Source: an uncultured Clostridia bacterium (GTDB lineage: Bacteria; Bacillota; Clostridia; TANB77; CAG-508). From it: 64,000 nt of DNA. The notes under the pieces were generated by a model that did no database searches, had not been told where the DNA came from, and saw only the letters and a program-made list of their open reading frames with translations. The DNA lies in NCBI GenBank assembly GCA_934133005.1, contig CAKPAI010000002.1, forward strand, positions 132,657 to 196,656, in the 5' to 3' direction. The translations under genes and the position numbers were made by a program. Each line of letters opens with the position of its first letter. Position 1 is the stretch's first letter. Below are positions 37,318 to 37,569 of this stretch, one piece after another.

Positions 37318-37569
37318 TTATGCTACCAATGGATTATAGAAAAGAAGTAAGAATGTGAAAGCAAATAATATTAGTAAGAATATTGCTAAAACTATTAAAA
37401 TTGTCATAACCGCATGTGTTATATCGCTTTTTGTTTCTGGGTTTCTTCCTACTGCTTCTGCTACCTTTGAACCTAGAATTCCTAATCCAATTCCCATTCC
37501 TAAAAATGCTAATCCTATCATCATTCCAATACAGTTCAATGATGCTACTAGTATTTCTCCATTATTCAT
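37318..37569 (-). CDS. F0 c-subunit-like proteolipid lacking the ion-binding carboxylate
   Basis: 83 aa, [35 protein letters not shown] matches helix 1 and the RQPE loop of subunit c. Helix 2 ([25 protein letters not shown]) has Ala/Leu where the essential Glu/Asp sits (checked by hand translation). Confidence 0.7.

What the first reader, a model, noticed from the sequence alone, without database searches (positions are those of the whole stretch)
37318..37569. c-subunit homolog with the essential ion-binding Glu/Asp replaced (non-conducting proteolipid)
Hand translation gives helix 1 plus the loop [27 protein letters not shown], which is unmistakably subunit c. Helix 2 ([34 protein letters not shown]) contains no acidic residue. 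Ala sits at the position about 20 residues after the loop Arg where Glu/Asp is universally conserved in ion-translocating c-rings. No atpB-like gene sits next to it, although atpB normally lies just upstream of atpE. A c-ring that cannot bind H+/Na+ implies a structural or rotor role only.
Basis: seen in the sequence. Interest (0 to 1): 0.85.

Follow-up and report, generated by a model that had tools for sequence, protein, structure and literature searches.

The report
ATP-synthase-like motor without ion sites
This small gene encodes an ATP-synthase rotor subunit that has lost its ion-binding acid, and it belongs to a conserved, apparently undescribed gut-bacterial operon that keeps the rest of the rotary engine, lacks the ion channel subunit, and is joined to giant cell-surface proteins.

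Summary
The ORF at 37318-37569, on the minus strand, is an 83-aa PF00137 subunit-c homologue. Ala62 sits in the column where canonical c subunits carry Glu/Asp, and helix 2 has no acidic residue.

This is not a sequencing error. Among the window copy and 80 species-level genome loci, the column is Ala (46), Thr (33) or Asn (2), written with nine different codons, and pN/pS is 0.04-0.17.

The gene lies in an 11-12 gene operon with the order of a canonical atp operon:
- a single-pass fn3-like protein where atpB would be
- c
- a b-delta fusion-like stalk protein
- alpha
- gamma
- beta
- an epsilon-like protein
- a small 4-5-TM protein
- single-pass surface proteins

Giant surface proteins (1950 and 3484 aa) flank it. 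No subunit a exists anywhere in the 64 kb. The same order recurs in uncultured Clostridia, Lachnospiraceae (including cultured Kineothrix alysoides), and MAGs labelled Bacilli or Mycoplasmatota.

The most likely function is an ATP-driven rotary motor that turns an ion-blind c-ring to do mechanical work on surface proteins. This resembles the mycoplasma Type 2/3 F1-like ATPases in concept, but it is not a member of those families. Databases label it an ordinary ATP synthase subunit c, and I found no published description.

The parts
37318..37569 (-). c83: 83-aa subunit-c homologue (two-helix hairpin). Loop E38/G41/R42/N43/P44/E45 is invariant. Ala62 occupies the carboxylate column. The C-terminus ends in a conserved NP motif.
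   Evidence: PF00137 at 31.9 bits against a gathering score of 24. Alignment to 4bem and chloroplast c places A62 on the Glu. Family column 62 is A46/T33/N2 against E11/D1 in canonical c. pN/pS is 0.04-0.17. All NCBIfam atpE equivalog scores are far below cutoff.
36383..37204 (-). p273: b-delta fusion-like peripheral stalk. It has an N-terminal TM helix continuing as a long helix (residues 2-70), a disordered linker (73-118), then a helical bundle plus a small beta domain (119-270).
35031..36365 (-). F1 alpha-like subunit, 444 aa. It keeps the P-loop (GDKRTGKT), the SVSR arginine finger and the N-terminal segment, but lacks about 70 C-terminal residues of canonical alpha.
   Evidence: PF00006 at E 6e-73. 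NCBIfam atpA models score 419-437 bits, below their cutoffs of 484-554. PDB alignment to Bacillus PS3 alpha covers query 5-433 against target 7-430 of 501.
34227..35012 (-). F1 gamma-like central shaft, 261 aa.
   Evidence: PF00231 at E 1.5e-28, 100.8 bits against a gathering score of 39.9.
32820..34190 (-). F1 beta-like catalytic subunit, 456 aa. It has an intact Walker A (GGAGVGKT), the catalytic GERSREG, Walker B ([10 protein letters not shown]) and a DELSDED loop.
   Evidence: PF00006 at E 3.5e-71. TIGR01039 atpD scores 480.9 against a cutoff of 462.85. The mycoplasma Type 3 and Type 2 beta models are below cutoff. Canonical F1 betas in the PDB score 380-416 bits and the G1-ATPase beta scores 313 bits. 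The motifs were read from the translation.
32567..32830 (-). eps87: 87-aa protein in the atpC position. It is probably the epsilon N-terminal beta-sandwich only, without the C-terminal helices.
   Evidence: A profile of 39 family members has only two PDB hits at E<=10. Both are the Bacillus PS3 epsilon chain, aligned in register (query 9-52 to target 3-45), at E 0.77-1.2, which is not significant by itself. One of 39 members touches PF02823 at E 0.023.
31951..32541 (-). tm196: small membrane protein with 4-5 TM helices. It is conserved in this position in every locus examined, is very divergent in sequence, and is fused to the next gene in some Lachnospiraceae. It is a candidate membrane partner of the ring or stalk. 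It is not a recognisable subunit a.
31215..32024 (-). p269: single-pass membrane protein with an extracellular domain. The start codon is uncertain because the ORF overlaps tm196 by 74 nt.
   Evidence: ORF and TM. Conserved in position in the loci. Its extracellular domain is homologous to the juxtamembrane domain of g1950 (hhalign probability 92%, E 8e-7).
30535..31191 (-). p218: single-pass membrane protein at the 3' end of the gene string. No homologue was detected in any of the 80 loci.
   Evidence: ORF and TM. No family hit. No locus ORF had p218 as its best BLAST hit at E<=1e-4.
37619..39178 (-). p519: single-pass (N-terminal TM) extracellular protein with a weak fn3 signal. It occupies the slot where atpB lies in canonical operons.
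   Evidence: ORF. One TM. fn3 at E 0.003, below the gathering score, and no ATP-synt_A match. Directly upstream of c in the loci whose upstream flank is held. Its juxtamembrane domain is homologous to that of g1950 (hhalign probability 96%, E 2.4e-9).
39208..45060 (-). g1950: giant 1950-aa surface protein with an N-terminal TM/signal anchor.
   Evidence: ORF. TM. Only a weak fn3 hit. No PDB sequence relatives. Upstream of p519 in nearly all loci.
45299..55753 (-). g3484: giant 3484-aa protein with TM helices at both ends (residues 16-34 and 3459-3477), which predicts a huge extracellular loop.
   Evidence: ORF. TMs. fn3 at 25.4 bits. No PDB relatives. Homologues lie upstream of g1950 in the window's clade and downstream of p269 in most other loci.

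Best explanation
The gene encodes the ring subunit of an F-type rotary ATPase that no longer moves ions.

The proposed mechanism has these steps.
- The operon makes an F1 head (alpha3beta3) with an intact catalytic site.
- It makes a gamma shaft and a probable epsilon N-domain shaft component.
- A ring of c hairpins keeps the cytoplasmic RNP loop that docks onto gamma and epsilon.
- A b-delta fusion-like peripheral stalk ties the head to the membrane.
- Subunit a, which carries the ion half-channels and the stator arginine, is absent.
- The mid-membrane carboxylate of c is replaced by Ala or Thr.

ATP hydrolysis would therefore turn gamma, epsilon and the c-ring against the stalk-anchored stator without carrying H+ or Na+. 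The torque would pass in or just outside the membrane to the co-encoded partners. These are the small 4-5-TM protein and the single-pass proteins p519, p269, g1950 and g3484, at least three of which share a juxtamembrane domain. The result would be mechanical work on giant surface proteins, such as movement, pulling, or release or resetting of adhesins.

Shown here:
- homology of each part
- loss of the carboxylate across the family
- absence of subunit a
- retention of the stalk
- conserved synteny
- purifying selection

Inferred:
- that the ring rotates
- that no ion is carried
- that the output is mechanical work on the surface proteins
For: - c is a real PF00137 member with Ala in the carboxylate column.
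- In 81 family sequences the column is A/T/N and never D/E, while the loop E38, G41, R42, N43, P44 and E45 is invariant.
- Of the best 120 database homologues, 117 of the 118 with a recognisable R[NQ]P loop have Ala at +20 and one has Ser. None of those 118 has an acidic residue in helix 2.
- pN/pS is 0.04-0.17, and several synonymous codons occur at position 62.
- The F1 parts are present with catalytic motifs intact.
- p273 folds as a TM helix plus delta/OSCP, and the 36 best Foldseek PDB hits are all delta/OSCP or b-delta chains. A peripheral stalk is only needed if torque is generated against a membrane-anchored stator.
- No subunit a was found: no ATP-synt_A hit in any operon protein, and the only other real polytopic membrane ORF in 64 kb is SecY.
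- The order g1950-p519-c-p273-alpha-gamma-beta-eps-TM-p269 recurs in the 80 loci wherever the contig is long enough, with a g3484-like gene at one end or the other. These come from Clostridia, Lachnospiraceae, Family XIII and MAGs labelled Bacilli or Mycoplasmatota.
- The TM protein is fused to p269 in some lineages.
- p519, g1950 and p269 share a juxtamembrane domain.
- There is a precedent. Mycoplasma Type 2 and Type 3 F1-like ATPases are proposed to transmit ATP-driven force across the membrane to surface proteins (PMC11864180, PMC12994834).
Against: - No experiment exists. Rotation, lack of ion transport and coupling to the giant proteins are all inferred from sequence and predicted folds.
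- The epsilon assignment rests on statistically weak hits (E about 1).
- The tm196 model is of only moderate confidence, so a very divergent subunit-a analogue cannot be excluded by fold.
- The TM helices of p519, g1950 and p269 are poorly conserved. That does not suggest a specific intramembrane fit to the ring.
- How a ring rotating in the membrane of a walled, spore-forming cell (MurC and SpoIIP nearby) could move proteins that must cross peptidoglycan is unclear.
- I could not check whether these genomes also carry an ordinary ATP synthase.
Confidence: 0.55

Rival explanations
1. Static anchor. The carboxylate-free c oligomer only tethers the F1-like ATPase to the membrane and does not rotate usefully. 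The head acts as a membrane-bound ATPase or chaperone, for example to assemble, fold or export the giant proteins in the manner of the FliI/FliH/FliJ export ATPase.
For: - The alpha and beta subunits score well against FliI/SctN models, as any F1 subunit does.
- Giant secreted proteins are encoded alongside.
- Some loci carry long disordered acidic tails on alpha or beta that could recruit clients.
Against: - The operon keeps gamma, an epsilon-like protein, the gamma/epsilon-docking RNP loop (invariant in 81/81 sequences) and a delta-containing stalk. These are the parts specific to torque transmission, and export ATPases lack them.
- The giant proteins have ordinary N-terminal signal anchors suited to Sec.
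- Helix 2 of c is far more conserved than a mere anchor would need.
Confidence: 0.2
2. It is still an ion pump or synthase with unorthodox chemistry. The ring binds an ion through other residues (D49, H52, T56 or T62), and the small 4-5-TM protein replaces subunit a.
For: - A polytopic membrane protein is always encoded right after epsilon.
- D/E49 and, usually, H52 are conserved near the start of helix 2.
- Thr occupies column 62 in 33 of 81 sequences.
Against: - D49 lies next to the cytoplasmic loop, not in mid-membrane.
- H52 is replaced by Q, S or R in 20 of 81 sequences.
- Column 62 is Ala in 46 of 81 sequences.
- The TM protein has no invariant residue at all and no conserved Arg, and it shows no similarity to subunit a.
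- From established knowledge, replacing the c carboxylate (E. coli cD61) abolishes transport.
Confidence: 0.1
3. It is a decaying duplicate of the atp operon, or an assembly or sequencing artefact, with no function.
For: Alpha is C-terminally truncated, epsilon is reduced, subunit a is missing and the carboxylate is lost.
Against: - All the genes are intact in the window and in most of the 80 independently assembled genomes, across several classes.
- The c gene has pN/pS of 0.04-0.17.
- c is 55-98% identical across the family, about as conserved as beta at 60-94%.
- The catalytic motifs are intact.
Confidence: 0.02

Closest known systems
Canonical bacterial F1Fo ATP synthase (atpBEFHAGDC operon)
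   Same: - Same gene order from c onward: c, b/delta, alpha, gamma, beta, epsilon.
- c is a PF00137 hairpin with the GxGxGxG helix 1 and the R(N/Q)P loop.
- Beta passes the atpD equivalog cutoff.
- The catalytic motifs are intact, and a delta-fold stalk is present.
   Different: - There is no subunit a, and a single-pass fn3-like protein sits in its slot.
- The c carboxylate is replaced by Ala, Thr or Asn.
- b and delta are fused.
- Alpha lacks about 70 C-terminal residues and falls below the atpA cutoffs.
- Epsilon is reduced to about 87 aa.
- A 4-5-TM protein, single-pass proteins and giant surface proteins are added.
Acetobacterium woodii hybrid F-type c-ring (PDB 4bem: c1 double hairpin plus c2/c3)
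   Same: It is the best PDB sequence match to c83 (E 1.7e-10 for c1 and 3.4e-7 for c2), and it shares the C-terminal LLFxNP ending. From established knowledge, c1 is an F-type c protein in which one hairpin has lost its ion-binding Glu.
   Different: From established knowledge, only one hairpin of the A. woodii ring is site-less, and the enzyme still works with subunit a as a Na+ ATP synthase. Here every hairpin lacks the site and subunit a is absent.
Mycoplasma Type 3 'F1-like X0' ATPase (MSC_0618-0624 / MMCAP2_0575-0581; needed for the MIB-MIP antibody-cleavage system)
   Same: Both are extra F1-like alpha/beta/gamma/epsilon sets encoded with non-F0 membrane proteins and next to surface proteins. 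Both are proposed to pass ATP-driven force across the membrane. Neither has subunit a or a known ion role (PMC3369863, PMC12994834).
   Different: - The mycoplasma clusters have 7 genes in another order: a 12-TM protein, a small cytoplasmic protein, gamma, epsilon, a 2-TM protein, alpha, beta.
- They have no recognisable c subunit and no b or delta homologue, and their alpha lacks the N-terminal helix.
- The window keeps a true c, a delta-fold stalk and the alpha N-terminus.
- The NCBIfam Type 3 models score below cutoff: beta 400.7 against 570, alpha 308.2 against 520.
Mycoplasma mobile Type 2 G1-ATPase (gliding motor; PDB 9io5) with the giant surface proteins Gli349, Gli521 and Gli123
   Same: Both are F1-like motors functionally linked to giant membrane-anchored surface proteins. 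Rotary catalysis is proposed to be converted into movement of those proteins (PMC11864180).
   Different: - G1 beta has a large N-terminal dimerisation domain and forms twin-motor chains.
- Its cluster has the 12-TM and 2-TM proteins, and no c or delta.
- From my own knowledge, the gli genes are not in the ATPase operon.
- The NCBIfam glide models are far below cutoff (394 against 850, and 384 against 600).
- In the PDB search, G1 beta scores 313 bits against 380-416 for canonical betas.
N-ATPase (alternate F1Fo, atpDCQRBEFAG)
   Same: It is a second, laterally spread F-type operon found beside the housekeeping enzyme.
   Different: From established knowledge (PMC2881411), the N-ATPase keeps subunit a and a c subunit with a full Na+ site. 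The TIGR0330x/0332x 'alt_F1F0' models score far below cutoff here, for example c at 21.3 against 130.85.

Membership tests
ATP synthase subunit c / proteolipid superfamily (Pfam PF00137) | Sequence match to the ATP-synt_C profile above the gathering score | tested here: met
   31.9 bits against 24, E 1.6e-7, residues 14-73.
Ion-translocating F-type subunit c (atpE equivalogs) | Conserved Glu/Asp in the middle of helix 2 (the H+/Na+ binding and DCCD-reactive residue) | tested here: not met
   Ala62 aligns with the Glu of 4bem, 4mjn and 3v3c. The family column is A46/T33/N2 against E11/D1 in canonical c.
Ion-translocating F-type subunit c (atpE equivalogs) | Score above the NCBIfam equivalog cutoffs for atpE | tested here: not met
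   The best hit is PRK06876 at 36.8 bits against a cutoff of 71. TIGR01260 scores 25.5 against 43.95.
Ion-translocating F-type subunit c (atpE equivalogs) | A partner subunit a (PF00119, with the conserved stator Arg) in the operon or genome | tested here: not met
   - No ATP-synt_A hit in any operon protein.
- The only other real polytopic ORF in the window is SecY.
- The rest of the genome could not be searched.
F-type rotary ATPase (F1 plus central and peripheral stalks) | An alpha/beta pair with P-loops, catalytic Glu and arginine finger, a gamma shaft, and a delta/OSCP-fold stalk | tested here: met
F-type rotary ATPase (F1 plus central and peripheral stalks) | An epsilon subunit (PF02823 beta-sandwich) | tested here: inconclusive
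   The only PDB hits of the family profile are Bacillus PS3 epsilon, in register, but at E 0.77-1.2. One of 39 members hits PF02823 at E 0.023.
Mycoplasma Type 3 F1-like X0 ATPase (NCBIfam MSC_0618_beta / MSC_0619_alpha) | Alpha and beta above the family cutoffs, and a 7-gene cluster with a 12-TM protein and a 2-TM protein | tested here: not met
   400.7 against 570 and 308.2 against 520. No 12-TM protein, and a different gene order. The cluster description is taken from PMC12994834.
Mycoplasma Type 2 G1-ATPase (NCBIfam glide_MMOB1660 / glide_MMOB1670) | Alpha and beta above the family cutoffs, and the N-terminal extension of beta | tested here: not met
   384.1 against 600 and 394.4 against 850. 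Beta is 456 aa and matches only positions 241-685 of the 705-position model.
N-ATPase (TIGR03305 / 03322 / 03323 / 03324) | Subunits above the 'alternate F1F0' cutoffs | tested here: not met
   Beta 409.1 against 752, c 21.3 against 130.85, gamma 38.3 against 282.35, alpha 362.9 against 750.5.
Known anti-phage defence systems (PADLOC) | Any operon protein matching a defence-system model | tested here: not met
   Only two weak P-loop matches for beta (E 6e-4 and 3e-3). Nothing for the other nine proteins.

The most novel reading that the evidence does not exclude
This would be a previously unrecognised class of rotary machine, in effect a 'Type 4' F-like ATPase. It would be a complete F-type motor whose proteolipid ring has been stripped of ion sites and whose subunit a has been replaced by surface-protein anchors. 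ATP-driven ring rotation would then be used directly as a transmembrane mechanical drive for giant extracellular proteins (surface motility, adhesion cycling or similar) in walled gut Bacillota. Because it still has a recognisable c-ring and b-delta stalk, and also occurs in MAGs labelled Mycoplasmatota, it may be the missing evolutionary intermediate between the ATP synthase and the enigmatic mycoplasma Type 2/3 F1-like X0 motors.
Probability: 0.4. Interest if true: 0.92.

Novelty: new variant of a known kind. Interest (0 to 1): 0.85.

Why it matters
1. The c-ring carboxylate and subunit a are the two universal requirements for ion translocation by rotary ATPases. A conserved, selected, widespread family that has lost both but keeps the F1 head, shaft and peripheral stalk would show that the F-type motor can be used for something other than ion coupling.

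2. The only precedents are the mycoplasma Type 2 and Type 3 F1-like ATPases, which the literature calls mycoplasma-specific. Their membrane sector (X0) and mode of force transmission are unknown. This family has recognisable parts and occurs in at least one cultured species (Kineothrix alysoides), so that question may become testable.

3. The genes are common in human and animal gut metagenomes. Individual variants are seen on up to 214 contigs.

4. NCBI and JGI annotate these genes as 'F0F1 ATP synthase subunit C' or 'F-type H+-transporting ATPase subunit c'. Metabolic reconstructions could therefore wrongly credit these organisms with an extra ATP synthase.

5. The operon ties giant surface proteins of unknown function to an energy source, which gives a handle on their function.

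Tried and rejected
- **Sequencing error or pseudogene:** rejected. 80 independent genomes show the same feature, with synonymous codon diversity at codon 62 and pN/pS of 0.04-0.17. The L031 pair gave pN/pS near 1 because the two equal-length sequences are not colinear, so I ignored it.
- **p519 as subunit a:** rejected. It has a single TM and a weak fn3 signal.
- **An alternative ion site in c:** D49 is next to the loop, H52 is not invariant, and column 62 is mostly Ala.
- **Defence system:** PADLOC gave nothing meaningful.
- **Identity of the giant proteins:** Pfam gave only weak fn3, and PDB sequence searches gave nothing.
- **Promoter and terminator scan of 29-46 kb:** uninformative in this 27% GC DNA, with counts equal to the shuffles.
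- **Conserved TM helices in p519, g1950 and p269 as a sign of docking on the ring:** not found. Only the juxtamembrane extracellular motifs are conserved.
- **Functional domains in the long alpha and beta extensions of some MAGs:** they are low-complexity acidic tails.
- **Literature:** eight full-text searches found no description of this operon or of a wholly carboxylate-free F-type c family. The library lacks most subscription journals, so absence is not proof.
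Full report
**1. The observation**

The ORF at 37318-37569 is real but is read on the minus strand, with ATG at 37569 and a GAGG Shine-Dalgarno 9 nt upstream.

It matches Pfam PF00137 (ATP synthase subunit C) at 31.9 bits, above the gathering score of 24, with E 1.6e-7. It falls far below every NCBIfam atpE equivalog cutoff; the best is 36.8 bits against a cutoff of 71.

The loop arginine is R42, and the residue 20 positions later is A62. HMMER alignments against solved c-rings place A62 opposite the ion-binding Glu. 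The best match is the Acetobacterium woodii c1/c2 ring (4bem, E 1.7e-10 and 3.4e-7), followed by chloroplast c.

**2. Not an error, and not a one-off**

A search of 5.8 billion proteins returned 1061 relatives. Of the best 120, 117 of the 118 with a recognisable R[NQ]P loop have Ala at +20 and one has Ser. None of those 118 has an acidic residue in helix 2.

A scan of one genome per species returned at least 103 loci, and 80 were kept. I aligned the window copy, these 80 and 12 canonical c subunits:
- The carboxylate column is A46/T33/N2 in the family and E11/D1 in the canonical set.
- No acidic residue occurs at positions 50-83 in the family.
- The cytoplasmic loop residues E38, G41, R42, N43, P44 and E45 are invariant in 81 of 81 sequences.
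- Helix 2 is almost frozen (M55, F69, L75 and P80 in 81/81).

Codon 62 is written as GCA, GCT, GCG, GCC, ACA, ACG, ACT, ACC or AAT. pN/pS of the gene against ten colinear relatives is 0.04-0.17.

An exhaustive HMMER search of 1.84 billion cluster representatives shows the carboxylate-free sequences as a tight group. Beyond about E 1e-10 the hits are ordinary Glu-bearing c subunits and fused multi-hairpin proteolipids.

**3. The surroundings**

The gene is one of a same-strand string.

| Gene | Coordinates | Size | Description |
|---|---|---|---|
| g3484 | 45299-55753 | 3484 aa | TM helix at each end |
| g1950 | 39208-45060 | 1950 aa | N-terminal anchor |
| p519 | 37619-39178 | 519 aa | single TM, weak fn3 |
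| c83 | 37318-37569 | 83 aa | subunit-c homologue |
| p273 | 36383-37204 | 273 aa | stalk-like protein |
| alpha-like | 35031-36365 | 444 aa | F1 alpha |
| gamma-like | 34227-35012 | 261 aa | F1 gamma |
| beta-like | 32820-34190 | 456 aa | F1 beta |
| eps87 | 32567-32830 | 87 aa | epsilon-like |
| tm196 | 31951-32541 | 196 aa | five predicted TM helices |
| p269, p218 | 31215-32024, 30535-31191 | 269 and 218 aa | single-pass |

From c onward this is the order of the canonical atpBEFHAGDC operon (established knowledge). p519 stands where atpB would be, and p273 stands where atpF and atpH would be.

Features of the individual F1 parts:
- Beta has Walker A (GGAGVGKT), the catalytic GERSREG, Walker B and a DELSDED loop. 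It just passes the atpD equivalog cutoff (480.9 against 462.85).
- Alpha has its P-loop and SVSR arginine finger and keeps the N-terminal segment that binds delta in canonical enzymes. It lacks the last ~70 residues and is below the atpA cutoffs.
- Gamma matches PF00231 at 100.8 bits.
- eps87 has no single-sequence hit. A 39-member profile finds only Bacillus PS3 epsilon in the PDB, in register with the N-terminal beta-sandwich, at a non-significant E of 0.77.

**4. The stalk is kept and subunit a is not**

p273 has no family hit. Its AlphaFold2 model (pLDDT 73) has three parts: a TM helix running into a 70-residue helix, a disordered linker, and a helical bundle plus a small beta domain.

In contrast, nothing resembles subunit a:
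- No operon protein hits ATP-synt_A.
- The tm196 family has no invariant residue and no conserved arginine.
- Its profile finds no subunit a in the PDB.
- In the whole window the only ORFs of at least 100 aa with three or more predicted TM segments are SecY, an antisense ORF with no supporting evidence, and tm196.

**5. Conservation of the whole system**

In the 80 loci the order g1950 - p519 - c - p273 - alpha - gamma - beta - eps - (4-5-TM protein) - p269 recurs wherever the contig is long enough. A g3484-like gene lies at one end or the other.

The hosts are mostly uncultured gut bacteria from humans, rabbits, chickens, goats and horses, according to the record titles:
- Clostridia
- Lachnospiraceae, including the cultured Kineothrix alysoides KNHs209
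- Eubacteriales Family XIII
- MAGs labelled Bacilli or Mycoplasmatota

Across this span c is 55-98% identical to the window copy, comparable to beta (60-94%) and alpha (52-95%). The accessory proteins drift to 20-30% identity.

In some Lachnospiraceae the 4-5-TM protein is fused to p269. Profile-profile comparison shows that p519, g1950 and p269 share a juxtamembrane extracellular domain: probability 96% with E 2.4e-9, and probability 92% with E 7.7e-7. Their TM helices themselves are poorly conserved.

The window is ordinary chromosome. It holds a ribosomal-protein/SecY/Adk block, MurC, RNase HII, ThrRS, Pgi, SpoIIP, HisRS, RelA and RecJ. The host is therefore a walled, probably spore-forming Clostridium-like organism of about 28% GC.

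**6. How it most likely works**

These points are established by the analysis:
- every recognisable part of an F-type motor is present except subunit a
- the ring has no ion-binding carboxylate in any member
- the gamma/epsilon-docking loop of c is invariant
- a peripheral stalk is kept
- the whole system is under selection and welded to surface proteins

A peripheral stalk has a purpose only if the head must be held still while the rotor turns against something anchored in the membrane (inference from the established mechanism of F-ATPases).

The best-supported reading is an ATP-driven rotary motor whose ring turns without carrying ions. Its torque would be taken up by the co-encoded membrane and surface proteins. 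I give this 0.55. The narrower claim, that this is not an ion-translocating ATP synthase, I would put at about 0.85.

The rivals are:
- a static membrane anchor for an assembly or export ATPase (0.2)
- an unorthodox ion pump using other residues, with tm196 as an a-analogue (0.1)
- a decaying duplicate (0.02)

The arguments for and against each are in the rival-explanations section.

**7. Comparison with what is known**

The machine is F-type by descent, but it fails the two defining features of an ion-translocating Fo: the carboxylate and subunit a.

- **A. woodii ring (4bem).** This is the nearest solved c relative. From established knowledge, one hairpin of its c1 has lost the Glu, but the ring as a whole still carries Na+ and works with subunit a.
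- **Mycoplasma F1-like ATPases.** In concept the closest systems are Type 2 (the G1 gliding motor) and Type 3 (F1-like X0, needed for MIB-MIP antibody cleavage). Both are proposed to send ATP-driven force across the membrane to surface proteins (PMC3369863, PMC11864180, PMC12994834).
- **Why it is not a member of those families.** Their NCBIfam models score below cutoff. Their clusters have seven genes in a different order, with a 12-TM and a 2-TM protein. They have no recognisable c, b or delta. G1 beta scores 313 bits here against 380-416 for canonical betas.
- **N-ATPase and defence systems.** The N-ATPase models are also far below cutoff. No PADLOC defence model fits.

**8. Novelty**

[quoted passage not shown] Eight full-text searches found no description of this operon or of a wholly carboxylate-free F-type c family.

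NCBI and JGI name the protein an ordinary ATP synthase subunit c.

I rate it a new variant of a known kind: an F-type-derived motor used for something other than ion coupling. It is of high interest because it is widespread, still has readable parts, and occurs in a cultured organism.

**9. Limits**

- Everything about function is inferred.
- The epsilon assignment is weak.
- The tm196 model has only moderate confidence.

Noticed in passing
Proteins P0144, P0146, P0155, P0156, P0161, P0167 (1139 aa, 14 matched stretches), P0171, P0176, P0179 and others: The exhaustive search with c83 also pulled out many fused multi-hairpin proteolipids, with 3 to 14 c-like repeats in one chain (238-1139 aa). 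A crude motif scan suggests they mix Glu-bearing hairpins with hairpins that have Q, G, S or I in the carboxylate position. I did not look at their genomic context.
   Followed up: partly
L057:3938-6889, L058:11002-13491, L071:8817-11489, L059:11006-13543, L053:11022-12710 (alpha); L032:13300-15345, L040:13337-15058 (beta): In MAGs labelled Bacilli or Firmicutes the alpha-like subunit carries a 100-540-residue acidic, Pro/Glu/Val-rich, low-complexity C-terminal tail. In the five alpha loci named here the tail ends in a conserved EEEV[IL]. Two Clostridia loci have a similar charged tail on beta. The terminal motif looks like a docking peptide, but its partner is unknown.
   Followed up: partly
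L016, L017, L028, L029, L033-L035, L038, L070, L078, L079 (gene after eps, about 370-410 aa, 5-6 TM): In these loci, mostly labelled Lachnospiraceae, the small 4-5-TM protein and the single-pass p269-like protein are fused into one polypeptide. This argues that the two interact physically where they are encoded separately, as in the window.
   Followed up: yes
window 37619-39178, 39208-45060, 31215-32024 (N-terminal ~250 aa of each product): p519, g1950 and p269 share a homologous juxtamembrane extracellular domain with Tyr-rich motifs (KWDGxYYL; GYIL..YYF; YQY..G.K.EY). hhalign probabilities are 92-96%. The domain matches no Pfam family.
   Followed up: partly
window 45299-55753 compared with loci L004, L012, L018, L041 and others: The position of the largest surface-protein gene differs between clades. 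It lies upstream of g1950 in the window and its close relatives (L002, L003, L006-L015). In most other lineages a g3484-like gene lies downstream of p269. No homologue of p218 was detected in any of the 80 loci.
   Followed up: partly
window 35031-36365: The alpha-like subunit stops about 70 residues short of canonical alpha. It aligns to positions 7-430 of the 501-residue Bacillus PS3 alpha, so most of the C-terminal helical domain is missing, while the N-terminal delta-binding segment is kept.
   Followed up: partly
window 19927-22251 (-) and 23422-23955 (-): A 774-aa ORF and a 177-aa ORF among housekeeping genes have no Pfam match at E<=1e-5.
   Followed up: no
window 1-64000: Nearly all long ORFs lie on the minus strand, and GC skew is negative in every 2-kb bin, with cumulative skew falling steadily. 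This is consistent with a single replichore with strong gene-strand bias. No tRNA genes were found in the 64 kb.
   Followed up: no
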